Origin: Fidelibacterota bacterium
GTDB taxonomy: Bacteria; Fidelibacterota; Marinisomatia; Marinisomatales; TCS55
NCBI GenBank assembly: GCA_046861385.1
Contig: JBHHTW010000013.1
Location: forward strand, 25,493 to 57,492
DNA: 32,000 nucleotides
Direction of reading: 5' to 3'
Part shown: one piece after another, positions 6,760 to 22,798 of the stretch
Layout of the letters: each line of letters begins with the position of its first letter
Numbering within the stretch: position 1 is the first letter of the stretch
The notes under the pieces: generated by a model
The model's input: the letters and a program-made list of their open reading frames with translations, nothing else
What the model was told of the DNA's origin: nothing
Database searches by the model: none
Position numbers and translations under genes: made by a program

Positions 6760-6982
6760 TTAGCCTCTTTTATTTAAAGACAAGTTAGGCAAACAAGCGG
6801 TAATTTTTAGTAGAATTATTCATAGATATAAGGTAATTGTGATAGATGATTGATGGAAAATGGGAAAAGAACACTGGAGCCAAACCAGAGAAAGACAGGC
6901 TAACAAGTTGGTTTGGCAGGGAATCCAAATCCATATACCTCACAAAAAATTTAGTTTTTTCTGACACAAATAATATTTGAAC

Positions 6983-7306: not shown

Positions 7307-7540
7307 ATTGAACTATTTATGATGACTATAAAAATAATAAGTAAGAATACAAATACATGAATAATTTAGTTACCAACTTGGACCCTTTATGAGAAAACAT
7401 ATTTATAAGTACTGGTGCCGTAATAATATTGGACTGGGGTATTATAACGCTGTAAAATTGGTTAAACGAAAATATGTAATTGATGAATATTACATTTTAC
7501 AGACTTAAACTTTATCGTGGTTAGCAATCCAAATATAAAT

Positions 7541-8158
7541 ATGATTCGTACAATAAAATACAAAGCCGGTGAAATAATCCGACAAAAAAACGCTCATGTA
7601 TATATACTACATTTCATTTTTTGTTTATTGATTAGTTGCGCACCGTCAATTAAGGAGCTTTCAGAAACAGATCCTGAAGCTGTTATCAACAGGAAAAACG
7701 AATTACTTGCCGGCAGCTCTGTATCGAAAGAAGTAAAAACGGCGGTGATTAATGCCCATAATAAAATAGGCAATGAGGCATTAAGGCGGGAGGACTTAGA
7801 GGAAGCTGAAAAACAGTTCAATGAATCGTTGTTGTTAGATAATAAAAATAAACAAGCACATTACGGTTTAGCAATGATTAAAGGACTTCGCCGATTCAAG
7901 AAAGGAAGTAAGTCGGCACTATGGGAAGCCATGGAGAATTTTGGAAAAGCGGCCTTTTTTGACCCGGCAAAGGGAGACCCGCACTACTGGATGGGACGCA
8001 CATATGAGAAAAAAGATGATGGAGATTTTGACCTTATAATTGAAGCATATGAAAAAGCATTAGGATTGCCTCTTCCAGACCCCTTGAAACAAGATGCTCA
8101 AAATAGATTAGAATTAGTAAAAAAACACCAAAAAACCTTAGAGGATTTTTGGAACTAG
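7541..8158 (+). CDS. TPR-repeat lipoprotein
   Basis: The internal ATG gives MIRTIKYK...FIFCLLISC|APS with a lipobox (L-I-S-C). TPR-like helices follow (ALRREDLEEAEKQFNESLLLDNKNKQAHYGLA; PHYWMGRTYEKKDDGDFDLIIEAYEKAL). The tracked start at 7517 is GTG. Confidence 0.55.
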   Translation: MIRTIKYKAGEIIRQKNAHVYILHFIFCLLISCAPSIKELSETDPEAVINRKNELLAGSSVSKEVKTAVINAHNKIGNEALRREDLEEAEKQFNESLLLDNKNKQAHYGLAMIKGLRRFKKGSKSALWEAMENFGKAAFFDPAKGDPHYWMGRTYEKKDDGDFDLIIEAYEKALGLPLPDPLKQDAQNRLELVKKHQKTLEDFWN

Positions 8159-8426: not shown

Positions 8427-9587
8427 ATGAATAAAAAATCGCTAATAAGATATGCTATTCTTAGCCTATTTCTTATTTTATGTAATACAATTCTTTTTGC
8501 GAAAGATTATAAAGTAAGCGGAACTTTAGTCGATGCTAATGAAAATAAAATTGGCGGTGCAACCGTTCTGCTTCTCACGCCAGACGGCGTTGAATCTCAG
8601 CGAACCAACACGTCAAAACCGCGTATGGGCATGGGGGGCGGAAGTTTCAAATTTAAAGATGTTCTTCCTGGGGACTACGCCCTGGAAGTAGATGCCGGAG
8701 CCAAAGGATCTATAAATACACCCATAACAGTCACGGATACCGATGTTGAAGATATCGCACTGGTGTTATCCGTCAGCGATTCAAATACTGAAGAAGAATC
8801 CCCCACTAATATCACCAGCGTTGTAACGGTACCGGAAGAGGCGGTTGAATCCGGAAGTTCCCCTGAATATGTGGCGACTGAGATCAGTTTTGAATTGAAA
8901 AAGTTAGGCGCTGAAATCAAACACTTAAACTCTGAATTGGAGGATCTCAAAGCGTTAAGTAAAATGTGGGTAAATCCTCTATCCATTTATTCCAAAGAAA
9001 TTATCCTGCAAAATGGAAGCACCGTTTTCGGAAAAATTGTCTATCAGGACGAAGAAACACTTAAAGTAGAAACATTAGTAGGCTATTTAATCATTGAGAG
9101 AAAAAAGGTGGTTAGAGTAATCGATAATATTGTGTCAGAAGAAACTCAGGAATACGTTCCAGAGCAAATCAGAGACAGTTACTCTCCTCCTCCGATGCCA
9201 AAACTGGCAGAACCCAAGTATACTTCTGCAGATCCGCTTAATCGCAAAGCGGGAAAAAAATATTCTGCAAATTGTGTATTAGTTGGAAACATCAGTGAAA
9301 GCAAAGACAATCAGGGCGCCATCATTTTCACGGGAGAGGTTAAAAATATCGGTGGACGCCGGGCAGATTTTGTAAAGGTTGATTTTGTTTTCCGTAAAAA
9401 CTGGAGCGGTGAGACCAAAACACTTACCACGTTTGTCCGAGGAACTTACCACACTTTTGATTCTGGAATTACAACTGACGCGACGCTTCTTCCGGGCTCA
9501 AACGGGGCATTCGAACTTTTTATCCCCAACGATTTTGGTTCATTTATAGGCTATTCTTATGTCATAGATTGGGAGGAATACCAGTAG
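8427..9587 (+). CDS. Secreted protein: CarboxypepD_reg-like beta-sandwich, coiled coil, small beta domain, Pro-rich linker and C-terminal beta-sandwich
   Basis: Signal peptide MNKKSLIRYAILSLFLILCNTILFA. YKVSGTLVDANENKIGGATVLLLTPDG...GDYALEV is the typical CarboxypepD_reg-like pattern. A heptad-like stretch follows (ELKKLGAEIKHLNSELEDLKAL). This is the first gene of the operon. Confidence 0.6.
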   Translation: MNKKSLIRYAILSLFLILCNTILFAKDYKVSGTLVDANENKIGGATVLLLTPDGVESQRTNTSKPRMGMGGGSFKFKDVLPGDYALEVDAGAKGSINTPITVTDTDVEDIALVLSVSDSNTEEESPTNITSVVTVPEEAVESGSSPEYVATEISFELKKLGAEIKHLNSELEDLKALSKMWVNPLSIYSKEIILQNGSTVFGKIVYQDEETLKVETLVGYLIIERKKVVRVIDNIVSEETQEYVPEQIRDSYSPPPMPKLAEPKYTSADPLNRKAGKKYSANCVLVGNISESKDNQGAIIFTGEVKNIGGRRADFVKVDFVFRKNWSGETKTLTTFVRGTYHTFDSGITTDATLLPGSNGAFELFIPNDFGSFIGYSYVIDWEEYQ

Positions 9588-10477
9588 TGAAGGCACTGCA
9601 AAGTTCACGTTGGCTTTTATATTATATAAGTGCTGGAATTATTTTTTCCACCCCTTTAATTGCTCAACGGCAGACATCATCACTCTCCGAAATATTTTTA
9701 TTGGATCTAGGAATAGTTATTGAGCCTGAAACAGGTTCAGAAACATATTCCCGCCTTATAGAGACCCCGTCTCGAGAAGTAAATTTTAGGATTAAAAAGG
9801 TTCATAGCGGGTCTGTTTATATGGCAGCATCCGATGAATTATTAAGTGCAATTGAACGGATTAATGTTCGTATTTCTGATATGGAGACATCTTTTAAAAA
9901 TGAACTGATGGCGCTAAGGGCTGAAAACAAAGAGTTAAAAACTGTATTAACGAACTATCAATCAATCAATAACGAACCTAAAAAACCCATTATAGTGGCA
10001 GCGCCCGCCCCCCCTTCTCCAGAAAATGACATATTAATTGATCCATTACCCGAAGTGGCCAGTATACATATCGAACCCCTTTCTCCCGATAAATCTTTTA
10101 ATCAGCGGACATACATGGCAGGCGTTTTTGCATATCAGAGGGAAGACTTTGCGTCTGCTTTGAAATATTTTGCGAAGTTACATTTGGAATTAGCATCATT
10201 GGAAACAATTGATAATGTAATGTACTGGACAGCGGATGCGTATCAACAAATCCATAATGATCAAAAAGCGCTTGAAATATTAGACAAATTAATAGAAAAT
10301 CAAAATTCTTATCGTCTTGATGATGCGTTGGTAAAAAAAGGATTGCTGTATAAAAAAATCGGGCAATTAGATTTAGCAATGCAAGCATTCAGCCGGGTGG
10401 TAAAAGAGTATCCCAACAGTGAATATACTCGCTTGGCAAGTCTGGAACTAAAACGAGTGGAGATGGCTTTACAGTGA
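9587..10477 (+). CDS. Periplasmic coiled-coil plus CpoB/YbgF-like TPR protein
   Basis: The likely start is the GTG at 9587, overlapping the upstream TAG, with GGAGGA at 9572-9577 as the SD. The ORF track uses TTG 9569. Features are a signal peptide (LLYYISAGIIFSTPLIAQ), a coiled coil (ISDMETSFKNELMALRAENKELKTVL), a Pro-rich linker and a C-terminal TPR block ending KEYPNSEYTRLASLELKR. That ending resembles the YbgF/CpoB C-terminal domain. Confidence 0.6.
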   Translation: MKALQSSRWLLYYISAGIIFSTPLIAQRQTSSLSEIFLLDLGIVIEPETGSETYSRLIETPSREVNFRIKKVHSGSVYMAASDELLSAIERINVRISDMETSFKNELMALRAENKELKTVLTNYQSINNEPKKPIIVAAPAPPSPENDILIDPLPEVASIHIEPLSPDKSFNQRTYMAGVFAYQREDFASALKYFAKLHLELASLETIDNVMYWTADAYQQIHNDQKALEILDKLIENQNSYRLDDALVKKGLLYKKIGQLDLAMQAFSRVVKEYPNSEYTRLASLELKRVEMALQ

Positions 10478-11877
10478 GAAAAGTTAATTATAGTTTTATA
10501 TCAATATTATTGCTAATTACATCCTTATTGTTTGGAGCTACACGCGTGGCATATACACGCCCGGGTTTTATGATGAAAATTCCATCATCAAGCGTTCAGA
10601 AAGCGCCCTATTTATTCCGTACTGGTTTTGGGACAGAATTGCACAATTTTAATCCGTTTAATTCCGCCCAGGGTATTTATTTTGATATGGAACTTGGGAA
10701 AAACTTCACATTTGGTTTTTCATCTGTACAAACAGCCGATACAACGGCGCTTGCTTTGCTGGGAACAACCGGATACACTCCTCCTGTAGAATTTGGATTT
10801 CACATACAGCAACGAGTCTACACTTATAATAATATTTCTCTTTCAATTGGTCTCCAAGACATCGTATTTCAAAACGCTGAAAGCGGCGGGTTAAGCCTTA
10901 ACCCCGAGGAACTTTCCTTTTTTGCTGTCGTCAGCAGCGAGAAAAATCTCGGGAAATATCATTTAAGTACCTTTATGGGTTTTGGCTCTGGAGGTTTTTC
11001 TCCAGCGGACACACTTGTTGATACAACAACCGCGATCACTAGTACAGCATCGAACAATACGACAACCCAGGCAGGTGTTTTTATGGGGTTAATAATGAAC
11101 ACGCCATACTTGGAAAAATGGGGTGGTATTGATATTGTGGGTGAATTTGATGGTACAGGCATCAATGTGGGACTCCGCATCCCCCTTACCTCGGATTATC
11201 GCCTGAACCTTGGGTTCACCCACATAGAAAAACTTCCAGATTTCAAAACCCGTTATTGGGAAGGGCATCCAGGGGTCACCCTCGGCTTTGATATGGCAGT
11301 TCCAAAAACAGGACGCACTCCATCGTCAGAGGGCTTTGGAGGACCGTCGCCCCTTCCCGGCTCACAATTAAAACTTCCGGGAACCGGTCAATATGAATCA
11401 CTCTCTTCGTCAGCGGATTCAACATTAGCGCTTGCAGATTATGCGGTTCATACTGTCCGAGACTCCATGACGATGTTGAAAAACGAAATGCGCAACCTGA
11501 TGGTTAACTTGGCTTCTATCCAACAGCAATCTCAATTTTTAGAGGATTCATTATTGGCAATGAAACTGAATCGTAATGTAGATGAAAAAAACATGAACGA
11601 AGCCATGCGGCATTTGTCTCGGTCGTTAAGATATTTTTATTCCGGGGATTACAGAGCAGCCTTACAAGAGGTGGAATCTGCTTTGGACTTAAACCCGAAT
11701 CTGGCTTTAGCCTATGCCCGTCGAGGATCTATATACTATAAACTTGGAGATATTCAACGAGCAACCATCAACTGGAATCTAGCATTGCGCATGGATCCCG
11801 AATATGATGATGTCAGAAACATTTTAAAAGCCCTACACGAAAACCGTTTAAAATCGACGAGTGTAGTAGAGGAGTAA
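10474..11877 (+). CDS. Secreted beta-rich (possibly outer-membrane) domain, coiled coil and C-terminal TPR protein
   Basis: The GTG start overlaps the upstream stop (GTGA). The signal peptide is MRKVNYSFISILLLITSLLFGA. About 280 aa are Gly/aromatic-rich with alternating strands, followed by a coiled coil (MTMLKNEMRNLMVNLASIQQQSQFLEDSLLAMKL). TPRs close the protein (YSGDYRAALQEVESALDLNPNLALAYARRGSIYYKLGDIQRATINWNLALRMDP). Confidence 0.6.
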   Translation: MRKVNYSFISILLLITSLLFGATRVAYTRPGFMMKIPSSSVQKAPYLFRTGFGTELHNFNPFNSAQGIYFDMELGKNFTFGFSSVQTADTTALALLGTTGYTPPVEFGFHIQQRVYTYNNISLSIGLQDIVFQNAESGGLSLNPEELSFFAVVSSEKNLGKYHLSTFMGFGSGGFSPADTLVDTTTAITSTASNNTTTQAGVFMGLIMNTPYLEKWGGIDIVGEFDGTGINVGLRIPLTSDYRLNLGFTHIEKLPDFKTRYWEGHPGVTLGFDMAVPKTGRTPSSEGFGGPSPLPGSQLKLPGTGQYESLSSSADSTLALADYAVHTVRDSMTMLKNEMRNLMVNLASIQQQSQFLEDSLLAMKLNRNVDEKNMNEAMRHLSRSLRYFYSGDYRAALQEVESALDLNPNLALAYARRGSIYYKLGDIQRATINWNLALRMDPEYDDVRNILKALHENRLKSTSVVEE

Positions 11878-11881
11878 ATAG

Positions 11882-12664
11882 ATGGATATTGCAACACTAA
11901 TAGGAATAATACTTGGTTTAGGCTCTATTTTCAGCGGAATATTTCTTGCTGCATCGTCTGCAAATGCCGGTATGGGAGGTTTCGTATCACCTTCAAGCTT
12001 TGCGATTGTTGTGGGAGGAATGATTGCCTCCGTTTCTGTCGCTTTCCCCTTATCCGATGTTTTACAGCTGGGAGCGGCAATGGGTGCGGTGCTGAAAGGT
12101 GGAAAACTGAAACTGGGCACTGTTGTCGATGATGCAGTAGTGACAGCTGAAGTGGGAAGAAAAGGAGCGGCTGAATTAGAAAAAGCATTAGATGGAGTAA
12201 AAAATCCATTTTTTAAAGATGGCGTACAAATGGTAGTGGACGGTTATTCGTTGGATGAATTGACCGAGATTCTGGAAACCCGCATTGAGTATAGGGAGAT
12301 TCGCGAAAAAACACAAGCCGGGTTATTTAAATCGATGGGTACCATGGCGCCCGCCTGGGGGATGATAGGAACACTGATTGGGTTGGTAATTATGTTATCT
12401 GGTTTTGGCGGTGAAGGCGGAGCAGATGCGCTTGGTCCCGGTATGTCAGCAGCATTGATTACTACATTCTATGGCGCTGTTTTAGCGAATTTGTTTTTTC
12501 TACCCATGAGTGAAAAATTAAATACAAGAATTAGTTTTACCAGCACAATGCAAGCGATGCTTGTTGAAGCAGCGCGATTAATCCATCAGAAGAAGCACCC
12601 GTTAATTGTTCGGGAAAAATTAAATTCCTTTATTCCTCCTAAGGAGTGGAAAAAAGAAGATTAA
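11882..12664 (+). CDS. motA: Flagellar-type stator protein MotA/PomA (MotA/TolQ/ExbB proton-channel family)
   Basis: 260 aa with a 2+2 TM layout and a large cytoplasmic loop between TM2 and TM3. TM3 is MAPAWGMIGTLIGLV and TM4 is MSAALITTFYGAVLANLFFLPMSEKL, carrying both conserved MotA prolines. A GAGGAG SD lies 7 nt upstream. Confidence 0.9.
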   Translation: MDIATLIGIILGLGSIFSGIFLAASSANAGMGGFVSPSSFAIVVGGMIASVSVAFPLSDVLQLGAAMGAVLKGGKLKLGTVVDDAVVTAEVGRKGAAELEKALDGVKNPFFKDGVQMVVDGYSLDELTEILETRIEYREIREKTQAGLFKSMGTMAPAWGMIGTLIGLVIMLSGFGGEGGADALGPGMSAALITTFYGAVLANLFFLPMSEKLNTRISFTSTMQAMLVEAARLIHQKKHPLIVREKLNSFIPPKEWKKED

Positions 12665-12668
12665 TTAA

Positions 12669-13460
12669 ATGCCAAAAACAGCTAAAGAACAAAAAGCCTA
12701 TAAAGCAGGCATCGCACAAGGAAAAACCCTTGTAGACGAAGGTCTACCCGGGTGGTTTGGAACTTTTGCTGATATGATGACGCTCTTGTTTGCGTTCTTC
12801 GTTCTGTTGGCGGCTATATCAACAATTGATCCTGTAAAGTTGCAGGAAATGGCTGATGCCATGGGTAAGTCTGTGGGTAGTAAGATAAAAAAGGAAAGCC
12901 AGGCTATGAACTTAGCGGACATTAAGAAAGCAGTTCAGGAAATGGTAAAAGAAATGCAAGAAGACTCTGAAACTGGAGAAACACCGGTTGAAGTTACTAC
13001 CGGGCCAAAAGGAGTAACCATTGGAATTTCATCTGATATAAGCTTTGCCTCCGGATCAGCAAAAACAAAACCGCAGATTGTTGATATATTGACAAAAATT
13101 GTACCCACCATAGAGAAGTCTTATTTCCAGATAGCTGTGGAGGGACATACAGACAATGAAAAACTACCTGAAGCATTACAAGTCAAATATCCCACAAATT
13201 GGGAGCTGTCGTCTGCCAGAGCATCGGCGGTTGTAAGAGAATTAATTAGACTGGGGGTGAACCCCACTCGATTGGAAGCAGTGGGTTATGGCGAATATGT
13301 TCCGCGGGATCGCGCGTCACATGAGTTAATTACGGCTGAGGTGATAATGAAATATAATAACACACAGGACCAAAAATCCAGAAACAGGCGTGTGGAAATT
13401 ACATTCCTGGCTCCAAGTTACAGCAGGGCCGGTGGAGATGAAAGCGAGAGCAATTCATAG
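12669..13460 (+). CDS. motB: Flagellar-type stator protein MotB (OmpA-like peptidoglycan-binding domain)
   Basis: PGWFGTFADMMTLLFAFFVLL holds the conserved channel Asp at the start of the single TM. The C-terminal OmpA-like motifs are VEGHTDN...NWELSSARASAV...NRRVEI. Confidence 0.9.
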   Translation: MPKTAKEQKAYKAGIAQGKTLVDEGLPGWFGTFADMMTLLFAFFVLLAAISTIDPVKLQEMADAMGKSVGSKIKKESQAMNLADIKKAVQEMVKEMQEDSETGETPVEVTTGPKGVTIGISSDISFASGSAKTKPQIVDILTKIVPTIEKSYFQIAVEGHTDNEKLPEALQVKYPTNWELSSARASAVVRELIRLGVNPTRLEAVGYGEYVPRDRASHELITAEVIMKYNNTQDQKSRNRRVEITFLAPSYSRAGGDESESNS

Positions 13461-13504
13461 CCAAATGAATTATGAGAAAAATTTCGATAAGCAAAGGAGC
13501 TATC

Positions 13505-15043
13505 ATGAGAAAAGTTAATATTTACTGTAGATCATTTATACTGGCAATATTTTGCCTCAGTGTGAGCTGGGGACAGAATAATAATTATTTAGCCCAGAAA
13601 TTGATGGTTGAAAATGATTTGCGCCAGCGTATAACTGATGCTTTATCTAAAATTATTGATGACAGAAAATATGTTATCGATGTTAAAGCCGATATTGAAA
13701 TCAGTGATGGTACGGAAGAACAAATCACCATCATGGGAGAAGGAAAACAACCACCGTCAGGTCAAGTATTAGAAGATGTATCATCGGATTTACAACAATC
13801 ATTAGAAAAGCCTTCTTCTGACAGATCTTCCGGTATATCAAGCGGCTTGCCTATCCCCGGATTCGAGTTTGAATCAGATGGTGGAGACGCTTACGCGGCA
13901 GAAACCGGAACCGAACCTGAAATGTTAACTCAAAGCACCCCTTCTTTAAGCTCCAGTCAAAAGAGTAATATATTATCAAGAACTGTAACGAGTCGCCGCC
14001 CATCGAAAGCAATAATTACAAAATTGGATATCAGTATTATTTTACAGGAAGGAGCCGCTCCGGAATTGATTGAAAATATACGTCAAGTCGTTATGGTTTC
14101 TTCCGGTTTTAATAGAGCCCGGGGCGATGCCTTAAGTATTATGACAGCTACGTTTAAAGAACGACGAGACGAAAAAACAGCGGAACAGATTTTATTAAAA
14201 AATATTGCTGAAAAACTTGAATCTCTGGAACAGCAGCAATCAGGCGACGGTTCTGTTCACTGGAAAGATGAACTGGATAGCTATAAAGCTCAGGAAGAAG
14301 AAAGGCGCGAGCAAGATAAATTGTATTTCCAGCAGCAACTCACTAATCTGGAATCAGAAGCAAGAAATCGTGCGTATCAAACAGAAAAAAGAGAGATGTT
14401 AAGACGTGATTCCTTAAAACTTATAGAGTTAAACAAAGAAATCAATGACTTAAAATCAATGATGGCTTCTTCTGATGTTTCGGTGGATGAAGTTGGACAG
14501 GCCCAAAATGCCATCGGTGAAAAAATCAGCGAGAAAGAATCGCTGGATGTAAAAATTGCTGAAAAACTGGCCATGCTTGATGCGGTTCAATCCGATCTTG
14601 ATCGCAGTATGGGCGGTGGGCCTTCTACAATGATGGTTGTTTTCGTTTCCCTTTTGGGTGCGTTGGTAATCGTCTTGGTTGTGGCGCTGATAATCATAAT
14701 GATGGGAAATAAACAAAAACAGCAACTTCCACCCCCGTGGATGTACCCACCTCGGCCTCGGAAAAAAAAAAGTAAAAATAAACCAGTGACACCCATTACC
14801 CAACCGGCGCCATCTGCACCTGCACCCCGACCTGTTGAAGATACTGCCGTTCTGCAAAGCGAAGTTTCTGATATGAAACAAGCCGTTGTCTCCATGAGCG
14901 TTGGGCAACCGGGTACTGCCACAAGAATTGTAAAAGAATGGATGGAAGACGATGTGCCGCCGCCAGAACCGGAACCGGCTGCTCCTGTGGAAGCTGAAGA
15001 AGAAGATAGCGGTAAAAAGAAAAAGAAAAAAAAGAAAAAGTAA
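13505..15043 (+). CDS. Reduced FliF-like (MS-ring-like) bitopic membrane protein
   Basis: The ATG at 13505 has an AAGGAG SD 5 nt upstream; the track start 13472 is less likely. After an N-terminal hydrophobic segment, ENDLRQRITDALSKIIDDRKYVIDVKADIEIS resembles the start of FliF RBM3. ITKLDISIILQEG..IENIRQVVMVSSGFNRARGDALSIMTATF (about 14009-14155) resembles its end (RLSVAVVV...A.GF...RGD...V....F). About 150 aa of E/Q/K-rich coiled coil follow, then TM2 (14630-14704) and a Pro-rich tail. The tail contains GTATRIVKEWMEDD (14912-14953), which resembles the FliG-binding C-terminal helix of FliF, then an acidic stretch and K9. Confidence 0.55.
   Translation: MRKVNIYCRSFILAIFCLSVSWGQNNNYLAQKLMVENDLRQRITDALSKIIDDRKYVIDVKADIEISDGTEEQITIMGEGKQPPSGQVLEDVSSDLQQSLEKPSSDRSSGISSGLPIPGFEFESDGGDAYAAETGTEPEMLTQSTPSLSSSQKSNILSRTVTSRRPSKAIITKLDISIILQEGAAPELIENIRQVVMVSSGFNRARGDALSIMTATFKERRDEKTAEQILLKNIAEKLESLEQQQSGDGSVHWKDELDSYKAQEEERREQDKLYFQQQLTNLESEARNRAYQTEKREMLRRDSLKLIELNKEINDLKSMMASSDVSVDEVGQAQNAIGEKISEKESLDVKIAEKLAMLDAVQSDLDRSMGGGPSTMMVVFVSLLGALVIVLVVALIIIMMGNKQKQQLPPPWMYPPRPRKKKSKNKPVTPITQPAPSAPAPRPVEDTAVLQSEVSDMKQAVVSMSVGQPGTATRIVKEWMEDDVPPPEPEPAAPVEAEEEDSGKKKKKKKKK
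14762..14771 (+). repeat. A10 homopolymer inside the FliF-like CDS (encodes RKKKSK)
   Basis: Read directly: g-aaaaaaaaaa-gt at 14761-14773. A second purine-only Lys-coding tract, (AAA/AAG)x9, lies at 15014-15040. Confidence 0.9.
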
Positions 15044-15052
15044 GGTAACAAT

Positions 15053-15985
15053 ATGATTACAGATTACAATAGACTTTCCGGTCTGCAAAAAGCAGCCGTT
15101 CTTTTCTCCGTTTTAGGTGAGGGGTTAGCTCTCTCTCTTGTTAAAGATCTTTCAAAGACTGAAATTCGAAAAGTACGAGCAGCGATGCGCGATTTGGATA
15201 ATGTCTCATTTTTAATAAAAAAACGAGTTATGGAAGAATTTTACTTCAGTTTTGTCAGTGAAAAATTTTATGATGAAAATTCTGACGAACCCAAAAAACC
15301 GTTCTCATTTTTAGACGATATTACAGATGAACAATTATTTGCGCTCATTAAACCAGAATCTGCATCAGTGGCCGCCATTGTTTTGGCACAGATTCCGGGA
15401 GAAAGACGAATGAAAATTGTGGAGCGGTTCGATGCTATGTCAAAAGGTGAAATCATTATGGAAATGGGAAATCTAAAGGATATTCCACTTGAAGCGGTCG
15501 TAAGCGTTGCAACCGACCTAATGAAAAAATCCAAATTATTACCCAAAACAGTTGCTTTCTCCCGGGGCGGAGGAAAAGATATTGCTGACATTCTTGGCGG
15601 ATTATCATCGGAGGAAGAAAAATTATTTCTTGAAAATATTTCTCGAGAAAACCCGGAATTAGCAGATGATATTAAAAAATATCATTTGACCTGGGAGATC
15701 ATATTCGAAGTATTACCCGACAGCACGTTACGCGATTTAATGAATTCTGTCGAACTGGATTCCATTGCCATGGCGCTGAAAGGAATGCCGGAAGACGTTG
15801 TGAATCGGGTGATCGAAAATCTACCGCAAAAGAAACAGGCTATGTATGAACCGGTTGAAGGGGCTGTTTCCAAGCGGGAAGTTGATAATGCAAGAAAACA
15901 AATTGTATCCTCCGCGAAAAAAATGGAAAAAGACGGAGCTTTCAATCTGTCGGACTTAGTCGGCGGTGGAGACATGGTAGAATAA
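15053..15985 (+). CDS. fliG: FliG homologue (rotor/torque-ring protein), short form with a degenerate FliM-binding motif
   Basis: 310 aa, collinear with FliG over its whole length. Matches are LSGLQKAAVLFSVLGEGLALSLVKDLSKTEI (FliG-N), KPFSFL, GGGKDIADIL, ENPELADDIKK, IAMALKGMPEDVVNRVIENLPQKK and the charged C-terminal helix SKREVDNARKQIV. Confidence 0.85.
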   Translation: MITDYNRLSGLQKAAVLFSVLGEGLALSLVKDLSKTEIRKVRAAMRDLDNVSFLIKKRVMEEFYFSFVSEKFYDENSDEPKKPFSFLDDITDEQLFALIKPESASVAAIVLAQIPGERRMKIVERFDAMSKGEIIMEMGNLKDIPLEAVVSVATDLMKKSKLLPKTVAFSRGGGKDIADILGGLSSEEEKLFLENISRENPELADDIKKYHLTWEIIFEVLPDSTLRDLMNSVELDSIAMALKGMPEDVVNRVIENLPQKKQAMYEPVEGAVSKREVDNARKQIVSSAKKMEKDGAFNLSDLVGGGDMVE

Positions 15986-16011
15986 GATCTTTGTAGGATA
16001 AATTTATTACA

Positions 16012-16047
16012 AACAGCCTTCGCTAATTGAGAGGGCTGTTTTATTTT
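16012..16047 (+). terminator. Rho-independent terminator ending the rotor-stator operon
   Basis: The stem CAGCCTTC (16014-16021) pairs with GAGGGCTG (16031-16038), with one G-U pair and a 9-nt loop. TTTTATTTT follows. It lies 27 nt after the fliG-like stop. Confidence 0.65.
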
Positions 16048-16159
16048 CAGCCCGATGTTAAACGACATAAAAATTCTAACATAAACTTATATAAAGAAAG
16101 AGATGTAAGAACTTTCTTGGGACAGCGAAGAAATAGATACCTAATGCAAGGCGGGTAAA

Positions 16160-17467
16160 TTGAATAATTTGATTGAAAAAATAGAAGAATATATTTTATC
16201 AGGATGTACCCATAAAGAAAACAGGGCAATTGGTGTAGAAGTAGAATCTATTATCTATAACAAACGCGGTGAACGAATTCCGGTAGATTCCAAAGAAGAA
16301 TTTTCAGCATTAGATTTTATCGATAGGATTACATCTGAATGCGAGGATCATCATTCATTTGTAACCTGCTCTCTGGAGCCGGGCGGCCAGGTGGAATGGG
16401 CATCCAAACCGGCCGTTACGATTCATGAATTAAACGATGAATTAAACACAATTAAAAATGCAGTTAAAATAGTGTGTTCGGAAAATGATTTAACGGTAGT
16501 AGATTTAAGCCTTGATCCTGTTTATGGGCCAAATGAGATTAAACTAATTAATCAGAAAAAATACCAGTTGATGCACAAACGATTTACGTCATCGGGAACA
16601 CTCGGCCCATGGATGATGCGTAATACGGCGAGTGTTCAAATAAATATTGATTTGCTTGATAAACAAGATGCAGAAGAATGTGGATTTATTGCCGATTGTA
16701 TCAGCCCTTTTGCCGCCATGATGTTTTCCAATGCGCCATTCATGAAAAGCCAACCCGTCGGATATGAAAATATTCGGTATAAAATCTGGGCGGATACAGA
16801 TTCTCCGCGTTGCGGTTATTTTATGGATCATGGAATGAATGATAGCGACGGTCTAATATCACAATTCGCTGAATATATTCTGGATGTTCCTGTTATTTTT
16901 ACAACTCCGGATCAACAAAATGAAGTGGGATATTTTAACGGCACCATTGGTGAATGGCTGACGGCAATAGAAGAAAAAAAACAGATAAAGTATGACGATA
17001 TTAAAACAGCGCTCCACCAAATATTTACCCATAATCGTTTCAAAAGCGTTTTGGAAATTCGTTCACCGGATAGACCACCACATGGATATGAATTAGCTCC
17101 GGCAGCTTATTGGACAGGGTTGATGGAAAAAGGAAAAATCAGAGAATCATTATTAGAAACACTTTCAAGCTGGACGATAAAAGAACGGACGGCAATGAAT
17201 CTAAAAGCCCTTTCGATTGATATAAAACAAGACGGTCCAAAACAAAAGTCTATTTTGCAATGGTTGGAATGGTTTGCGGAATTAGCGCTCGAAGGTCTTG
17301 AGAACAGGGCGAGCCGCCTGAATATTCCATCAGAAAAAAGGTATATTGAACCATTCACAAACGATATTTTTTCAAAGGGAATTTTCTCCCTTCAGGTTCA
17401 GGAAGATTTTGCTAAACAGAGTAAGTCCGTAAAAGACTTCATATTAAGGAAACGAGAGAATGATTAA
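16160..17467 (+). CDS. Glutamate-cysteine ligase family protein (plant/proteobacterial GCS2-like type)
   Basis: 435 aa. GVEVES near the N-terminus, SLEPGGQVEWAS and KIWADTDSPRCGYF resemble the conserved blocks of type-2 gamma-glutamylcysteine synthetases. The start codon (TTG in the track) is uncertain. Confidence 0.7.
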   Translation: MNNLIEKIEEYILSGCTHKENRAIGVEVESIIYNKRGERIPVDSKEEFSALDFIDRITSECEDHHSFVTCSLEPGGQVEWASKPAVTIHELNDELNTIKNAVKIVCSENDLTVVDLSLDPVYGPNEIKLINQKKYQLMHKRFTSSGTLGPWMMRNTASVQINIDLLDKQDAEECGFIADCISPFAAMMFSNAPFMKSQPVGYENIRYKIWADTDSPRCGYFMDHGMNDSDGLISQFAEYILDVPVIFTTPDQQNEVGYFNGTIGEWLTAIEEKKQIKYDDIKTALHQIFTHNRFKSVLEIRSPDRPPHGYELAPAAYWTGLMEKGKIRESLLETLSSWTIKERTAMNLKALSIDIKQDGPKQKSILQWLEWFAELALEGLENRASRLNIPSEKRYIEPFTNDIFSKGIFSLQVQEDFAKQSKSVKDFILRKREND

Positions 17468-17870
17468 TATCGAACATTTTCACAGGCAAATGATTCATTT
17501 CCCTATGGCATTGTTAACTATGAGTATCGTATTCGATTTGGCTGGCATATATTTCAAAAAAGAACAGTTTTTTTCAACAAGCTGGTACATATTAATAACA
17601 GGAGTTTTAGGGTCGGTTGCGGCTATCTTGTCCGGGGTGATTGCAGACACGGTGTACGGACACATGTCAAATCCATTCCCAATATATAAGACACATGGAA
17701 TGGTCCAAATAATAGCCAGCGCCATATTTATCAGTTTATGGTTCTGGCGATATTTTCAAGGCTCACCAAAAAATAAACCACCCATGTGGTATTTAATCGT
17801 CGGTTTGATTGCTGTCATTACATTATTGTATGGCGGTCATTTAGGCGGAACATTGGCCGGACATGGTTAA
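17460..17870 (+). CDS. DUF2231-like four-helix membrane protein
   Basis: 136 aa. The N-terminal HFPMALLTMSIVFDL resembles the DUF2231 signature (HP.lVHFPIAL). There are four hydrophobic helices. The ATG overlaps the end of the ligase gene by 8 nt. Confidence 0.55.
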   Translation: MINIEHFHRQMIHFPMALLTMSIVFDLAGIYFKKEQFFSTSWYILITGVLGSVAAILSGVIADTVYGHMSNPFPIYKTHGMVQIIASAIFISLWFWRYFQGSPKNKPPMWYLIVGLIAVITLLYGGHLGGTLAGHG

Positions 17871-17988: not shown

Positions 17989-18657
17989 ATGACCCATTTC
18001 AAATCTGTATTTAGTTCCTCAATTGGTAAAAAAATTCTTATGGCAGCGACGGGGTTATTATTATGCCTGTATTTGATTGTTCATATTATTGGAAACTTAT
18101 TTCTTTTTGCAGGTCCCGACGCATTTAATCTTTATGTGAAAACACTATCAAGCGTTAAACCTGTAGTTAGAACCATCGAAGTCATTCTTGCGCTGATATT
18201 TCTTAACCACATTTTTTTTGGGGCAAAGTTGACATTGGAAAACAGAAAAGCGATTACTCAAAAATATACAGTTAACTCAGCGAATGAAAATTCAAGTTTT
18301 TTTTCAAGAAATATGTTTTTAAGCGGAAGCATCCTCTTCATTTTTTTAATAACCCATCTATCCACTTTTTGGTATCTGTTTCAAGCACAGCATGATGAAG
18401 GAAATTTTTATAATATTGTTATGGGCAAGACTGTCGGATTCGGTAATCCGCTTATCGCAGCTTTGTACTCAGTGGCTATGATCTTGCTGGGATTCCATCT
18501 TCGTCATGGATTTCAATCTGCATTTCAAACCTTCGGTATCCGTTACAATAAATATAGCAGACTAATTGAAACAGCGGCGATGGTCTTTTGGCTAATTATA
18601 CCTATGGGGTTTTTTGCAATTGCGGTGTGGTTTGGATTCTTGGGAGGAGGGCATTAA
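17989..18657 (+). CDS. sdhC: Succinate dehydrogenase/fumarate reductase cytochrome b subunit (b558-type, single membrane anchor)
   Basis: 222 aa with five hydrophobic helices bearing conserved His residues ([24 protein letters not shown]). It sits directly upstream of sdhA/sdhB. Confidence 0.8.
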
Positions 18658-18658
18658 T

Positions 18659-20569
18659 ATGCTGAATAGTAAAATTCCGGCCGGACCCCTGGCAGAAAAA
18701 TGGACCAAGCAAAAATTTGATTTGAAGCTTGTAAATCCAGCCAATAAACGGAAATATAACATTATAGTTGTGGGAACCGGATTGGCCGGAGCTTCAGCTG
18801 CGGCTTCATTAGCTGAGTTGGGTTATAATGTACAGGCGTTTTCTTACCACGAATCGCCCCGCAGAGCCCATAGTATCGCAGCCCAGGGAGGTATTAATGC
18901 AGCGAAGAATTACCCCAACGACGGTGATAGTATTTTTCGGCTTTTCTATGATACAATAAAGGGAGGAGATTATCGCTCCAGAGAGGCCAATGTTTATCGT
19001 TTGGCTGAGGTTAGTAATAATATTATTGATCAATGCGTTGCCCAGGGAGTGCCCTTTGCCCGGGAATACGGCGGACTTTTGGATAATCGTTCGTTTGGGG
19101 GTGCACAGGTTTCCAGAACGTTTTATGCTAGAGGGCAAACAGGTCAGCAATTATTATTAGGTTGTTATTCCGCTTTGGTGCGTCAAATGCATACTGGAAA
19201 AGTAACGTTTCACCCAAGACATGAAATGTTGGATTTGGTAATGATAGATGGTGAAGCAAAAGGAATTATTACACGGAATCTTATCACCGGAGAAATTAAA
19301 CCTCACGCCGCTCATGCGGTGGTTCTGGCAACAGGTGGATACGGCAATCTGTTTTTTCTGTCTACGAATGCCATGGCAAGCAACGCAACGGCTGCCTGGA
19401 GAGCCCATAAAAAAGGAGCCTTTTTTGCAAACCCAAGTTTCGTACAAATCCATCCAACATGCATTCCAGTTGCCAGCGAACATCAATCTAAACTAACGTT
19501 AATGAGCGAAAGCTTGAGGAATGACGGCAGAGTTTGGGTGCCAAAAAAGAAAGGCGATAAACGTCATCCAACCGAAATCCCCGAAGAAGAAAGGGATTAT
19601 TATCTGGAACGCCTGTATCCATCTTTTGGCAATCTGGTACCGAGAGATGTGGCAAGCCGTAGAGCAAAGGAAATGTGTGATTTAGGGAACGGAGTTGGCG
19701 AGACGGGGCTGGCGGTGTACCTGGATTTTGCAGATGCTATACAACGAATGGGTAAAGAGGTTGTTAAAGAGAAATATGGGAATCTGTTTGATATGTATAA
19801 ACAAATTACCGGTGAAAATCCTTACAAAGTTCCCATGCGAATTTATCCAGCAATACATTATACCATGGGTGGAGTATGGGTGGACTATAACCTCATGAGT
19901 ACAATCCCGGGTTTGTATATATTAGGTGAAGCAAATTTTTCTGATCATGGAGCCAACCGCCTGGGCGCCTCTGCCTTGATGCAGGGACTTGCTGATGGTT
20001 ATTTTATATTGCCTTATACGATTGGTGATTACTTAACCGGGAAACTTGGTGAACATATTTCCACCGACCACGAGGCCTTTACTGCAGCTGAAACAAAAGT
20101 AAAAAATAATATTTCAACGCTTCTTTCTATTAACGGTAAAAGAACCGTGGATGATATTCATAAAGAGCTTGGCTTAATGTTATGGAACAATGTCGGTATG
20201 TCTCGAAATGCTAAAGGTCTAGAAAAAGCAATTAATGAAATCCCAAAACTTAGAGAAGAATTTTGGAACAATGTTAAAGTTACCGGTACAGCAGATGAGC
20301 TAAATCCAGAACTTGAGAAAGCCGGTCGCGTTGCAGATTTTCTGGAACTGGGAGAACTCATGGCTCGTGATGCTTTAAATCGCGAGGAATCATGCGGTGG
20401 ACATTTCCGGGAAGAACACCAAACTGAAGAAAACGAAGCAAAACGCAACGATGAAGAATTTACCTATGTGAGCGCCTGGGAGTATAAAGGCAAGGATAAA
20501 CCGTCAAAATTACACAAGGAAACCCTTGAGTTCGATAATGTTGAATTAACCACCAGGAGCTACAAGTAA
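18659..20569 (+). CDS. sdhA: Succinate dehydrogenase/fumarate reductase flavoprotein subunit
   Basis: Contains the FAD fold [13 protein letters not shown], the covalent-FAD His context [11 protein letters not shown] and the active-site block HYTMGG. The ATG at 18659 is preferred over the track start 18614: GGAGGAGG sits at 18643-18650, and the 45-nt extension overlaps sdhC. Confidence 0.95.
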
Positions 20570-21306
20570 TGAGGGTATCGTTAAAAGTTTGGCGGCAGCC
20601 AAAAGCGGCGTCTCGGGGATCCTTTGAAACCTATCCTGTGGAAAATGTATCGGAAGACATGTCATTTTTCGAAATGATGGATATGTTGAACGATCAACTG
20701 GTATTGGCCGGAAAAACGCCCATTGCTTTTGATCACGATTGTCGTGAGGGGATCTGTGGAACGTGTGGTTTATTTATCAACGGCAGAGCCCATGGCCCAC
20801 TAACGGGTATTACTACCTGCCAGCTGCACATGCGCAGTTTTAAAGATGGAGAAACAATCACGGTCGAACCTTGGCGCGCAAAAGCATTTCCGGTGATAAA
20901 AGATTTAATTGTGAATAGAATTTCCCTGGACAGTATAATGGAAGCGGGCGGCTATATTTCCGTGAATACAGGTGGAGCCCCCGATGCAAATGAAATTCTT
21001 ATACCAAAATTACACGTAGATGAGGCCATGGATGCCGCCGCATGTATCGGTTGTGGTGCTTGTGTGGCTACGTGTAAAAATTCCTCTGCGATGTTATTTG
21101 TTTCTGCAAAAATCTCTCAATTGGCATTACTTCCCCAAGGACAAACTGAATGCAAAACCAGAGTCAATAATATGGTGGCTCAAATGGATGAAGCCGGGTT
21201 TGGTAATTGCACCAATACGGGAGCTTGTGAAGTGGAATGCCCAAAAGAAATATCGATTATACACATTGCGCGGTTAAACAGGGAATTTATTAAATCAAGT
21301 TTTTAA
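20569..21306 (+). CDS. sdhB: Succinate dehydrogenase/fumarate reductase iron-sulfur subunit
   Basis: Three Cys clusters are visible: [10 protein letters not shown] (2Fe-2S), [11 protein letters not shown] (4Fe-4S) and [12 protein letters not shown] (3Fe-4S). The start overlaps the sdhA stop (TAATG). Confidence 0.95.
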
Positions 21307-21324: not shown

Positions 21325-21356
21325 TAAAAAAGCCCCGGAATATCGGGGCTTTTTTA
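21325..21356. terminator. Bidirectional rho-independent terminator between convergent sdhB and tonB
   Basis: AAAAAA-AGCCCCG-gaatat-CGGGGCT-TTTTT: a perfect 7-bp GC-rich stem (21331-21337 with 21344-21350) flanked by A- and T-tracts. It can therefore terminate both strands. The T-tract side overlaps the tonB stop codon. Confidence 0.75.
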
Positions 21357-21971: not shown

Positions 21972-21974
21972 GAT

Positions 21975-22780: not shown

Positions 22781-22798
22781 TCGCTTTGATTCTCGAAA

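What the first reader, a model, noticed from the sequence alone, without database searches (positions are those of the whole stretch)
15053..15985. FliG homologue keeps the stator-facing charged helix but has lost the EHPQR FliM-binding motif
Seen: the protein is collinear with FliG, and I compared it by eye with Thermotoga maritima FliG recalled from memory.
- After the shared KPFSF[LV] block, T. maritima reads ...LVNFLQSEHPQTIAVVLSYL....LKRIA. This protein reads ...LFALIKPESASVAAIVLAQI....IIMEMG.
- EHPQ therefore becomes ESAS, and the Arg 32 residues downstream becomes Glu.
- The MFVFED segment is altered to HLTWEIIFEVL.
- The C-terminal helix is still highly charged (VSKREVDNARKQIVSSAKK, against VRLKDVEEAQQKIINIIRR).

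Established: the EHPQR motif of the FliG middle domain is a principal FliM contact. The charged C-terminal helix contacts the MotA cytoplasmic loop.

Inference: the protein is built to be driven by MotA and anchored on the FliF-like tail, but probably does not assemble a FliM/FliN switch complex. That again points to a rotor without a C-ring.
Basis: partly seen in the sequence, partly recalled or inferred. Interest (0 to 1): 0.72.

Follow-up and report, generated by a model that had tools for sequence, protein, structure and literature searches.

The report
Flagellar-type rotor without switch ring
An abundant, apparently non-motile group of ocean bacteria (Marinimicrobia/SAR406) carries a strongly conserved gene cluster encoding only the torque-generating core of the flagellar motor (MotA, MotB, a shortened FliF, and a FliG that has lost its FliM-binding motif), which looks like a rotary motor put to a use other than swimming.

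Summary
The ORF at 15053-15985 is a real three-domain FliG homologue from a Marinimicrobia (Fidelibacterota) genome. Computed alignments confirm that E. coli EHPQ(125-128) and R160 correspond to E102-S103-A104-S105 and E137. Across 81 species only the first Glu is kept.

The true torque helix (aa 257-270) keeps the R281 equivalent (K260) but has lost D288/D289 through a 3-4 residue deletion.

The gene closes a seven- or eight-gene cluster: secreted TPR proteins, MotA, MotB, FliF-like, FliG-like. It is collinear in 46-50 of 50 testable loci and under purifying selection (dN/dS 0.03-0.18).

No other flagellar gene lies within about 10 kb in 86 loci. In a published survey, 0 of 13 Marinisomatota genomes read had fliM or fliN, while 9 had fliG.

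Relatives in other phyla fuse the FliF-like and FliG-like parts into one protein, also without EHPQR.

Best reading: a MotAB-driven FliF/FliG rotor with no C-ring and no export apparatus. Its output is unknown, and nothing has been tested experimentally.

The parts
7517..8158 (+). TPR lipoprotein-like protein (213 aa); loosely associated first gene of the cluster
   Evidence: Pfam TPR_11/TPR_8. Present upstream in 43/50 loci with enough upstream DNA.
8427..9587 (+). Secreted protein with an N-terminal CarboxypepD_reg-like domain and an uncharacterised C-terminal part (386 aa)
   Evidence: Pfam PF13620 2.3e-7, below the cut-off. Syntenic in 50/50 loci. dN/dS 0.06-0.07.
9569..10477 (+). Secreted TPR protein, YbgF/BamD-like TPR region (302 aa)
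   Evidence: Pfam TPR_6 6.6e-13. NCBIfam tol_pal_ybgF 3.4e-10, below the cut-off. Syntenic in 46/50 loci. dN/dS about 0.16.
10474..11877 (+). Secreted protein with a family-less N-terminal region of about 330 aa and C-terminal TPR repeats (467 aa)
   Evidence: TPR_2 3.2e-9. No family for the N-terminal region. Syntenic in 48/50 loci. dN/dS 0.04-0.07. A homologous TPR protein precedes the fused FliF-FliG-like genes in L081-L083.
11882..12664 (+). MotA/PomA-type stator subunit (260 aa); charged cytoplasmic loop R93 K94 ... E98 . E100 at 12158-12181
   Evidence: PF01618 1e-27. NCBIfam MotP/PomA/MotA 1e-50 to 1e-42, all below equivalog cut-offs. PDB 6ysf/8ucs 2.7e-36. R93, K94, E100, P157 and P208 invariant in 64 sequences. 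R93 = E. coli R90 and E100 = E. coli E98, with a one-residue shorter spacing.
12669..13460 (+). MotB-type stator subunit (263 aa) with plug, channel Asp (D35, 12771-12773) and OmpA-like peptidoglycan-binding domain
   Evidence: MotB_plug 2.4e-15 and OmpA 1.6e-13. D35 and the plug segment invariant in 67 sequences.
13505..15043 (+). Shortened FliF-like membrane protein. The 512-aa form starts at 13505; the ORF opens at 13472. Parts: signal/TM1; RBM3/collar-like domain (about 13592-14101); periplasmic coiled-coil hairpin (about 14171-14614); TM2 (about 14630-14710); FliG-binding tail helices (about 14843-14947); poly-Lys end (15014-15040)
   Evidence: Only PF08345 (1.3e-9), with no PF01514 (RBM1/2). 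TIGR00206 match only to model positions 238-449. Family profile against Vibrio FliF 8z5s: RBM3 region and C-terminal tail. AF2 model with pLDDT 63.7. Foldseek top hits are FliF RBM3/collar structures, all weak with E>=6.8e-3. Syntenic in 49/50 loci.
15053..15985 (+). FliG-like rotor protein (310 aa): the finding
15356..15367 (+). E102-S103-A104-S105, the equivalent of EHPQ (E. coli 125-128)
15461..15463 (+). E137, the equivalent of R160 of the EHPQR motif
15563..15574 (+). R171-G172-G173-G174: conserved Gly-Gly linker between the M and C domains
   Evidence: R171, G172 and G173 invariant in 81 sequences; aligned to the GG of T. maritima and H. pylori FliG.
15683..15700 (+). H211-L-T-W-E-I216, the equivalent of the MFxFED hinge
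15821..15862 (+). aa 257-270 'LPQKKQAMYEPVEG': the true torque-helix equivalent, shortened by 3-4 residues. K260 = E. coli R281; D288/D289 are lost
   Evidence: AF2 gives only a short helix at 259-264.
It starts at the E. coli R297 position (S273, then invariant K274 R275)

Best explanation
The gene encodes the rotor protein of a non-flagellar machine built from the torque-generating core of the bacterial flagellar motor.

**Proposed mechanism**
- MotA/MotB stator units are anchored to peptidoglycan by the OmpA-like domain of MotB. They are powered by ion flow past MotB D35.
- The MotA cytoplasmic loop (R93, K94, D/E98, E100) pushes on the C-terminal domain of the FliG-like protein (K243, K260/K261, E266/E269, K274/R275).
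- The N-terminal domain of the FliG-like protein is held by the two C-terminal helices of a shortened FliF-like protein.
- The FliF-like protein forms an inner-membrane ring through an RBM3/collar-like domain.

**What is missing and what follows**
- The FliF-like protein lacks RBM1/RBM2, the part that houses the type III export gate.
- The FliG-like protein lacks the EHPQR surface that binds FliM.
- So there is no C-ring, no CheY-controlled switching, no export apparatus, and no rod, hook or filament.

**Output**
- Mechanical output most likely passes through a 150-residue periplasmic coiled coil of the FliF-like protein. The probable receivers are the secreted TPR-containing proteins encoded just upstream.
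- What it finally does is unknown.

**Shown versus inferred**
- Shown computationally: homology, domain content, motif states, synteny, purifying selection, and absence of other flagellar genes nearby and in a published genome survey.
- Inferred: ring assembly, rotation, unidirectionality, and coupling to the TPR proteins.
For: - **FliG identity.** All three FliG domains are present by sequence and by model. AF2 pLDDT is 80.9. Foldseek gives 3hjl at 6.4e-10. Domain TM-scores are 0.89 (M), 0.84 (C) and 0.63 (N).
- **Motif loss.** EHPQR is lost family-wide. EHPQR is the FliM contact (PMC7355467).
- **Conserved cluster.** The order is CPDreg, TPR, TPR, MotA, MotB, FliF-like, FliG-like. It is found in 46-50 of 50 loci from species only 55-91% identical in FliG.
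- **Purifying selection.** dN/dS is 0.03-0.18 for all seven genes.
- **Stator residues.** Functional stator residues are invariant.
- **FliF-like protein.** It has only the RBM3/collar-type domain plus a FliF-like FliG-binding tail.
- **Natural fusions.** FliF-like and FliG-like parts occur as one protein elsewhere, next to a homologous TPR gene and motAB in L082/L083.
- **Separate clade.** On a neighbour-joining tree of 100 representatives, the Marinimicrobia and fused forms (none with Q128/R160) separate from canonical FliGs. Of 43 sequences in the canonical clade, 42 carry Q128 with R/K160.
- **No flagellar neighbours.** No FliE/H/I/J/K/L/M/N/O/P/Q/R, FlhA or FlhB homologue occurs in 1.40 Mb around 86 loci or elsewhere in the window.
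- **Published survey.** Among 13 Marinisomatota MAGs read, fliG is present in 9, fliM in 0, fliNY in 0 and cheA/B/R in 0.
- **Phenotype.** The cultured relative is non-motile.
Against: - No experimental data of any kind exist.
- The rest of this genome could not be searched, so a fliM/fliN elsewhere is not formally excluded.
- The canonical acidic pair of the torque helix (D288/D289) is missing in this subfamily. The stator-rotor interface is therefore altered and might not transmit torque in the canonical way.
- The FliF-like model is only moderately confident (pLDDT 63.7, pTM 0.27). Its structural matches to FliF are weak (best E 6.8e-3).
- The tree has no bootstrap support and was built only from the best hits to the query.
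- The link to the TPR proteins rests on synteny alone.
Confidence: 0.6

Rival explanations
1. The same proteins form an envelope-spanning energy transducer of the Tol-Pal or TonB type. The MotAB unit delivers force or conformational change to a FliF-like/FliG-like adaptor and on to TPR and outer-membrane partners, without a continuously rotating ring.
For: One upstream TPR protein resembles YbgF/CpoB of Tol-Pal and BamD, though below cut-offs. The FliF-like protein has a long periplasmic helical region reminiscent of TolA domain II. The canonical acidic pair of the torque helix is lost.
Against: MotA is of the flagellar type, not the TolQ/ExbB type: tolQ scores E 0.0096 against 1e-50 for MotP/PomA. 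It also keeps the rotor-facing charged loop. The partner is a complete FliG with a ring-building FliF domain. A separate ExbB-ExbD-ExbD-TonB set is present in the window.
Confidence: 0.2
2. It is an ordinary flagellar FliG of a flagellated bacterium. Its switch complex has diverged so far that FliM binds through other residues.
For: JGI annotates members as 'flagellar motor switch protein FliG'. The protein has the full FliG architecture, and motAB is adjacent.
Against: TIGR00207 scores 110.7 bits against a cut-off of 226.7. No other flagellar gene lies near any of 86 loci. FliM and FliN HMMs found nothing in the 13 Marinisomatota MAGs read, one of them 93% complete, while detecting them in other phyla. 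The FliF partner lacks RBM1/2. The cultured relative is non-motile.
Confidence: 0.05
3. It is a decaying remnant of a lost flagellum with no present function.
For: The lineage seems to lack the rest of the flagellum. Several canonical motifs are degraded.
Against: ORFs are intact in 80 species. dN/dS is 0.03-0.18 in all seven genes. Catalytic and interface residues are invariant. Gene order is conserved together with four non-flagellar genes. Related fused forms occur in other phyla.
Confidence: 0.03
4. It is a MotAB-based anti-phage system of the Zorya kind.
For: MotB matches ZorB models in PADLOC at 9e-16, through generic MotB similarity.
Against: MotA has no ZorA match. No ZorC/D or other defence family matches any of the eight cluster proteins. 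MotA is 260 aa with no long tail. The cluster sits in a fixed chromosomal context in all species rather than in a variable island.
Confidence: 0.02

Closest known systems
Flagellar motor core: MotA5B2 stator, FliG rotor, FliF MS-ring (E. coli, Salmonella, T. maritima, Vibrio)
   Same: The same four protein families occur in the same gene neighbourhood logic. FliG has N, M and C domains with a Gly-Gly linker and an MFxF-like hinge. The FliF tail motif for FliG_N is present. MotA R90/E98 and MotB D32 equivalents are conserved.
   Different: - No EHPQR motif.
- The torque helix is shortened and lacks D288/D289.
- FliF lacks RBM1/RBM2 and gains a periplasmic coiled coil and a poly-Lys end.
- No FliM/FliN, export apparatus, rod, hook or filament genes nearby.
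- All scores fall below NCBIfam equivalog cut-offs.
- The cluster is joined to four secreted TPR or unknown proteins.
Chlamydiaceae FliF-FliG fusion protein (Bergeron 2016, PMC4768692)
   Same: A FliF/FliG-derived protein retained in a non-flagellated lineage, with a reduced FliF periplasmic region.
   Different: The chlamydial protein keeps an RBM2-like domain and lacks the RBM3-type domain. It is fused only to a FliG middle-domain homologue and has no MotAB. It is thought to work with the injectisome. Here the opposite half of FliF is kept, FliG is complete, and MotAB is present.
Unnamed 560-790 aa FliF-like/FliG-like fusion proteins from metagenomes (e.g. P0285, P0438, P0290 from a Fibrobacterota MAG, P0314 from Deltaproteobacteria bacterium RIFOXYA12_FULL_61_11)
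   Same: They are the nearest relatives outside Marinimicrobia. They also lack H126/Q128/R160. They show the same collinear order: RBM3-like domain, TM, FliF tail, FliG N/M/C. A homologous TPR gene lies upstream, and motAB lies downstream in L082/L083.
   Different: They are one polypeptide instead of two. They have no long periplasmic coiled coil. They keep a full-length torque helix, often with an acidic residue at the D289 position.
Extra FliG paralogues in spirochaetes (e.g. Borrelia FliG1); recalled from my own knowledge, with only 'FliG homolog' mentions seen in PMC7225975
   Same: A FliG-family protein that is not the main switch component.
   Different: Those organisms are flagellated and carry a full flagellar gene set. 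The paralogue is not paired with its own FliF-like and MotAB genes. This comparison was not tested here.
Other non-flagellar 5:2-type motors: GldLM (type IX secretion and gliding), AglRQS-Glt, TolQR, ExbBD, ZorAB (own knowledge)
   Same: Ion-driven MotA/ExbB-family stators energise envelope processes other than swimming, often with TPR lipoproteins as partners.
   Different: None of them uses a FliG/FliF rotor. Here the stator is of the true flagellar MotA/MotB type.

Membership tests
Flagellar switch protein FliG (TIGR00207 equivalog) | Three-domain FliG_N / FliG_M / FliG_C architecture and fold | tested here: met
   Pfam hits to all three domains. PDB sequence hits. AF2 model matches full-length FliG structures at E about 1e-9, with domain TM-scores 0.63-0.89.
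Flagellar switch protein FliG (TIGR00207 equivalog) | Score at or above the curated equivalog cut-off | tested here: not met
   110.7 bits against a cut-off of 226.7. NF004260 scores 24.5 against 550. NCBI names it only 'FliG C-terminal domain-containing protein'.
Flagellar switch protein FliG (TIGR00207 equivalog) | EHPQR motif of FliG_M (FliM contact) | tested here: not met
   The motif reads E102 S103 A104 S105 ... E137. Only E102 is conserved in 81 family members. 42 of 43 sequences in the canonical clade of the sample have Q128 with R/K160, against 0 of 57 on the Marinimicrobia/fused side.
Flagellar switch protein FliG (TIGR00207 equivalog) | Charged torque-helix residues (E. coli K264, R281, D288, D289, R297) | tested here: inconclusive
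   K264 maps to K243 and R281 to K260, both invariant. D288 maps to P267 and D289 is deleted. R297 maps to S273, with invariant K274/R275 adjacent. Nearby E266 and E269 are nearly invariant.
Flagellar switch protein FliG (TIGR00207 equivalog) | Co-occurrence with fliM/fliN and the other flagellar genes | tested here: not met
   None found in the window or in 1.40 Mb around 86 loci. In 13 Marinisomatota MAGs of PMC10359470, none has fliM or fliNY. The remainder of this genome could not be searched.
Flagellar MS-ring protein FliF (TIGR00206) | RBM1-RBM2 (PF01514, SctJ-homology region) plus RBM3/collar (PF08345), two TM segments and a FliG-binding tail | tested here: not met
   PF08345 only (1.3e-9). 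PF01514 is absent here and in the 120 listed homologues. TIGR00206 scores 22.8 bits against 129.75. TM topology and the tail motif are present.
Flagellar stator MotA/MotB (PomA/MotP-type) | Four-TM MotA with a charged cytoplasmic loop and conserved prolines; MotB with plug, channel Asp and OmpA-like domain | tested here: met
   However, all NCBIfam equivalog scores are below cut-off (best 171.9 against 394), so this is a divergent member.
Zorya anti-phage system | ZorA with a long tail, ZorB, and ZorC/D or ZorE/F/G | tested here: not met
   Only generic ZorB-MotB similarity was found. No ZorA or accessory matches.
Chlamydial-type FliF-FliG fusion | Single protein of about 330 aa: RBM2-like domain, TM, FliG_M only; no MotAB | tested here: not met
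   Here there are two proteins, an RBM3-type domain, a complete FliG, and MotAB present.
Unnamed clade of non-canonical FliG-like proteins (Marinimicrobia split forms plus FliF-FliG-like fusions) | Groups apart from canonical FliG, lacks H126/Q128/R160, and is paired or fused with an RBM3-only FliF-like part | tested here: met
   NJ tree and motif table for 100 representatives. Collinear profile matches. The tree has no support values and the clade has no published definition.

The most novel reading that the evidence does not exclude
The cluster defines a previously unrecognised, widespread class of non-flagellar rotary machines. Each has a FliF-like/FliG-like rotor (split or fused), a MotAB stator, and periplasmic or outer-membrane TPR partners. 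Members occur in SAR406, one of the most abundant bacterial groups of the dark ocean, and in Fibrobacterota and delta-proteobacterial MAGs. Its FliG clade branches outside the canonical flagellar FliGs in my tree. It could therefore be a surviving relative of the rotor-stator module that existed before, or independently of, its union with the type III export apparatus and C-ring. The alternative is that it is a reduced flagellum.
Probability: 0.35. Interest if true: 0.9.

Novelty: new variant of a known kind. Interest (0 to 1): 0.78.

Why it matters
**Biology**
- If it works as proposed, the torque-generating core of the flagellar motor can exist and be maintained without a C-ring, export gate or filament.
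- That bears directly on how the flagellum was assembled in evolution, and on what rotary motors do in cells that do not swim.
- It would also give a minimal natural rotor (FliF-like, FliG-like, MotAB) for structural and biophysical work.
- It would point to an unknown envelope function in SAR406, a very abundant and almost uncultured ocean lineage.

**Practical consequence**
- These genes are often auto-annotated as 'flagellar motor switch protein FliG' or 'FliF'.
- Such labels can produce false calls of motility in metagenomic surveys.

Tried and rejected
- **Promoter and terminator scan** of 6700-16400. Counts equalled the shuffled controls, so it was uninformative.
- **Accessory protein sub-regions.** Pfam on the OM-TPR N-terminus, CPDreg C-terminus, TPR2 N-terminus, the FliF-like coiled coil and the tail found nothing (one search failed because of a frame error). 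A PDB sequence search of the 467-aa TPR protein returned only generic TPR hits.
- **PADLOC** for a Zorya-like reading. Rejected.
- **Literature.** Ten searches found no description of this cluster. One search was wasted because the prefix 'flig' matched 'flight'.
- **Residue mapping.** My first mapping of E. coli residues, with mafft --keeplength, gave wrong numbering (first half). I replaced it with a BLASTP pairwise alignment and a fresh MAFFT alignment.
- **Torque-helix recollection.** The real E. coli sequence corrected this.
- **Taxonomy of the fused forms.** Names could be obtained for only 2 of 13 fused-form clusters looked up.
Full report
**What is at the coordinates**

- Window 15053-15985 (+) is an intact 310-codon ORF.
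- Its product matches Pfam FliG_N (1.3e-17), FliG_M (1.3e-8) and FliG_C (6.3e-19).
- It also matches solved FliG chains by sequence: Aquifex 3hjl at 7.5e-21 and T. maritima 1lkv at 5.4e-18.
- An AlphaFold2 model built on 50 sequences has mean pLDDT 80.9.
- That model finds every FliG structure in the PDB. Full-length E-values are about 1e-9. Domain TM-scores are 0.89 for FliG_M (4fq0_C), 0.84 for FliG_C (1qc7) and 0.63 for FliG_N (5tdy_D).
- An identical protein in NCBI is labelled 'FliG C-terminal domain-containing protein [Fidelibacterota bacterium]'. All close relatives come from Marinimicrobia/SAR406.
- The protein reaches only 110.7 bits on the curated FliG equivalog model, whose cut-off is 226.7.

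**Checking the observation**

- To fix the numbering I fetched E. coli K-12 fliG and aligned it.
  - E125-H126-P127-Q128 correspond to E102-S103-A104-S105.
  - R160 corresponds to E137.
- In 81 family members taken from 80 species-level loci, only E102 is conserved (79/81).
  - Position 103 is D/E/S.
  - Position 104 is Pro in 41.
  - Position 105 is R/P/S.
  - Position 137 is E in 57, S in 11 and N in 7.
- The MFxFED hinge reads HLTWEI here, but the family consensus is HLTFED.
- The Gly-Gly linker (R171-G172-G173) is invariant.

**Correction to the observation**

- In the real E. coli sequence the torque residues lie one helix earlier:
  - K264 in 'ALKG'
  - R281 in 'MSQRAA'
  - D288-D289 in 'LRDDL'
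  - R297 in 'GPVRL'
- The corresponding segment here is 'LPQKKQAMYEPVEG' (aa 257-270). The mapping is as follows:

| E. coli residue | This protein | Family state |
|---|---|---|
| K264 | K243 | invariant |
| R281 | K260 | invariant |
| D288 | P267 | P in 80/81 |
| D289 | falls in a 3-4 residue deletion | deletion shared by all 81 |
| R297 | S273 | P/A/S, followed by invariant K274-R275 |

- E266 and E269 are nearly invariant and may supply the negative charge.
- Other Marinimicrobia subfamilies (P0243, P0246, P0251) keep a full-length helix with Glu-Asp at these two positions.
- So the EHPQR loss is confirmed, while 'keeps the stator-facing charged helix' is only partly right.

**The surroundings**

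- The gene is the last of a tightly packed same-strand series. Gaps or overlaps between these genes are 4-44 bases:
  - a secreted CarboxypepD_reg-like protein (8427-9587)
  - two secreted TPR proteins (9569-10477 and 10474-11877)
  - MotA (11882-12664)
  - MotB (12669-13460)
  - a FliF-like protein (13505-15043)
  - the FliG-like protein
- A TPR lipoprotein-like gene (7517-8158) often precedes them.
- In 50 loci with enough upstream DNA, the genes occur in the same order with these frequencies:

| Gene | Loci with the gene (of 50) |
|---|---|
| CPDreg | 50 |
| TPR2 | 46 |
| OM-TPR | 48 |
| MotA | 50 |
| MotB | 50 |
| FliF-like | 49 |
| FliG-like | 50 |

- The downstream genes vary between loci.
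- dN/dS against six relatives is 0.03-0.18 for all seven genes, so this is not a decaying relic.

**The stator**

- MotA is closest to flagellar MotA (C. sporogenes 6ysf/8ucs, 2.7e-36).
- R93 and E100 are the equivalents of E. coli R90 and E98. Both are invariant, with one residue less between them.
- P157, P208 and MotB D35 are invariant.
- The one fused-type locus examined (L082) has canonical spacing in MotA and a full-length torque helix in its FliG part. This fits co-adaptation of the two sides, but n = 1.

**The FliF-like protein**

- It matches only PF08345 (1.3e-9), not the SctJ-homology family PF01514. The same holds for the 120 listed homologues.
- A family profile aligns weakly to Vibrio FliF over the RBM3/collar region.
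- The same profile aligns over the C-terminal FliG-binding tail: 'nePelaaqvvknWm' against 'gqPqaatkivkeWi'.
- The AF2 model is only moderately confident (pLDDT 63.7). It shows the following features:
  - a helix, two long strands and a helix, with an internal disordered insert
  - a long periplasmic coiled-coil hairpin (aa 223-370)
  - a TM helix
  - two cytoplasmic helices
- Its best structural matches are FliF RBM3/collar structures. All are weak (E>=6.8e-3).

**Is there a C-ring?**

- The rest of the window encodes ordinary metabolism, an ExbB-ExbD-ExbD-TonB set and large surface proteins.
- I searched 21 E. coli flagellar and chemotaxis proteins against every ORF of at least 40 aa in 86 loci (1.40 Mb).
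  - Found: FliG in 86 loci, MotB in 74, MotA in 68 and FliF in 1.
  - Not found: FliE, H, I, J, K, L, M, N, O, P, Q, R, FlhA, FlhB and CheW.
- I could not search whole genomes. A published HMM survey of ocean MAGs tabulates fliG, fliM and fliN/Y per genome (PMC10359470, Supplementary Dataset 3).
  - In the 13 Marinisomatota rows I read, fliG is present in 9.
  - fliM, fliNY, cheA, cheB and cheR are present in none, including a 93%-complete MAG.
  - SAR324, Planctomycetota and Nitrospinota rows score 1/1/1.
- The only cultured member of the phylum is non-motile (PMC11652737).
- EHPQR is documented as the FliM contact (PMC7355467).

**Relatives elsewhere**

- An exhaustive search of 1.84 billion representatives gave 3694 hits, of which only 28 were below 1e-30.
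- After the Marinimicrobia subfamilies (33-58% identity), the next best hits are not canonical FliGs. They are 560-790 aa proteins.
- These proteins carry a signal/TM segment, a periplasmic domain, a TM segment, a FliF-like tail and then FliG N/M/C in one chain.
- The FliF-like family profile matches their N-terminal halves collinearly. For example, P0298 aligns positions 38-219 to 49-238 at 5.5e-10. The FliG-like match follows directly. This is a natural fusion that supports the FliF-like/FliG-like interaction.
- Two fused forms have names: a Fibrobacterota MAG and Deltaproteobacteria bacterium RIFOXYA12_FULL_61_11.
- In L082/L083 the fused gene sits between a TPR gene homologous to the window's and motA-motB. 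In L081 it has the TPR gene but no adjacent motAB.
- The 102 aligned sequences (100 representatives, the window protein and T. maritima FliG) fall into these classes:

| Length class | Q128 and R/K160 | Count |
|---|---|---|
| 400 aa or less | present | 41 |
| 560 aa or more | absent | 40 |
| 400 aa or less | absent | 15 (includes the Marinimicrobia forms) |
| 401-559 aa | absent | 5 |
| 560 aa or more (P0340, a full FliF-FliG fusion) | present | 1 |

- A midpoint-rooted NJ tree (100 sequences after a gap filter) separates the canonical group from the Marinimicrobia and fused group. It has no support values.

**What it most likely is**

- It is most likely a MotAB-driven FliF/FliG rotor without a C-ring or export apparatus. 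It would therefore lack CheY-controlled switching and a filament.
- Output probably passes through the periplasmic coiled coil to the co-encoded TPR proteins.
- Rivals, each with the probability I assign:
  - a non-rotating Tol/Ton-like transducer using the same parts (0.2)
  - a true but divergent flagellar FliG (0.05)
  - a functionless relic (0.03)
  - a Zorya-like defence system (0.02; only generic MotB similarity)

**Comparison with what is known, and novelty**

- The closest published precedent I found is the Chlamydiaceae FliF-FliG fusion (PMC4768692).
- That protein keeps the opposite half of FliF, carries only FliG_M, and has no MotAB.
- Ten full-text searches found no description of the Marinimicrobia cluster or of the fused family. 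The library is incomplete, so this is absence of evidence only.
- I rate it a new variant of a known kind: known flagellar parts in a new, conserved, non-flagellar configuration.

Noticed in passing
window 15014-15040 (C-terminus of the FliF-like protein): The FliF-like protein ends in a run of nine lysines (GKKKKKKKKK) preceded by an acidic, Pro-rich stretch. The poly-Lys end is nearly invariant across 62 aligned homologues. Its purpose is unknown.
   Followed up: partly
window about 14171-14614 (FliF-like aa 223-370): A predicted coiled-coil hairpin of about 150 residues lies on the periplasmic side, between the RBM3-like domain and TM2. It is absent from the fused FliF-FliG-like relatives, whose TM2 comes about 190 residues earlier.
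   Followed up: partly
P0441, P0442: These proteins of about 670 aa combine FliG_M and FliG_C with C-terminal TPR repeats. They are a third architecture of non-canonical FliG. Context was not examined.
   Followed up: no
P0320, P0322, P0383: A small clade of FliG-like proteins of about 350-400 aa keeps the R160 equivalent but has lost H126/P127/Q128 (ESVPR, ESPRR, ESAAR). It branches next to canonical FliGs.
   Followed up: no
L082 14552-21944 and L083 11099-18491: Directly after motB in the fused-type locus lies a giant gene (more than 2519 aa) with DUF7948, SBBP and Calx-beta hits. It could be a surface protein linked to the system.
   Followed up: no
window 21354-23416 (- strand): An ordinary ExbB-ExbD-ExbD-TonB set lies about 5 kb downstream. 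The genome therefore has a separate MotA/ExbB-family motor for TonB functions. It is syntenic in several loci.
   Followed up: partly
L046, L079, P0426: Contigs carrying this Marinimicrobia-type gene are labelled Terriglobia, SAR86 and Woesearchaeota in public records. These are probably mis-binned short contigs.
   Followed up: no
window 25161-26072 (-), 26299-28341 (+), 28338-32000 (+): Two ORFs (303 and 680 aa) have no Pfam or NCBIfam match. An FG-GAP/He_PIG/Ig-repeat protein of more than 1220 aa runs off the window end.
   Followed up: partly
Public annotations of family members: JGI names these proteins 'flagellar motor switch protein FliG' and 'M-ring protein FliF/YscJ'. In PMC10359470 they are counted as fliG-positive. 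Surveys that score motility from single marker genes would mis-call SAR406 as motile.
   Followed up: partly
window 16160-17870 and 17989-21306: A glutamate-cysteine ligase family 2 gene, a DUF2231 membrane protein and succinate dehydrogenase CAB follow the cluster here. GCS2 follows it in 21 of 50 loci. No functional link is evident.
   Followed up: no
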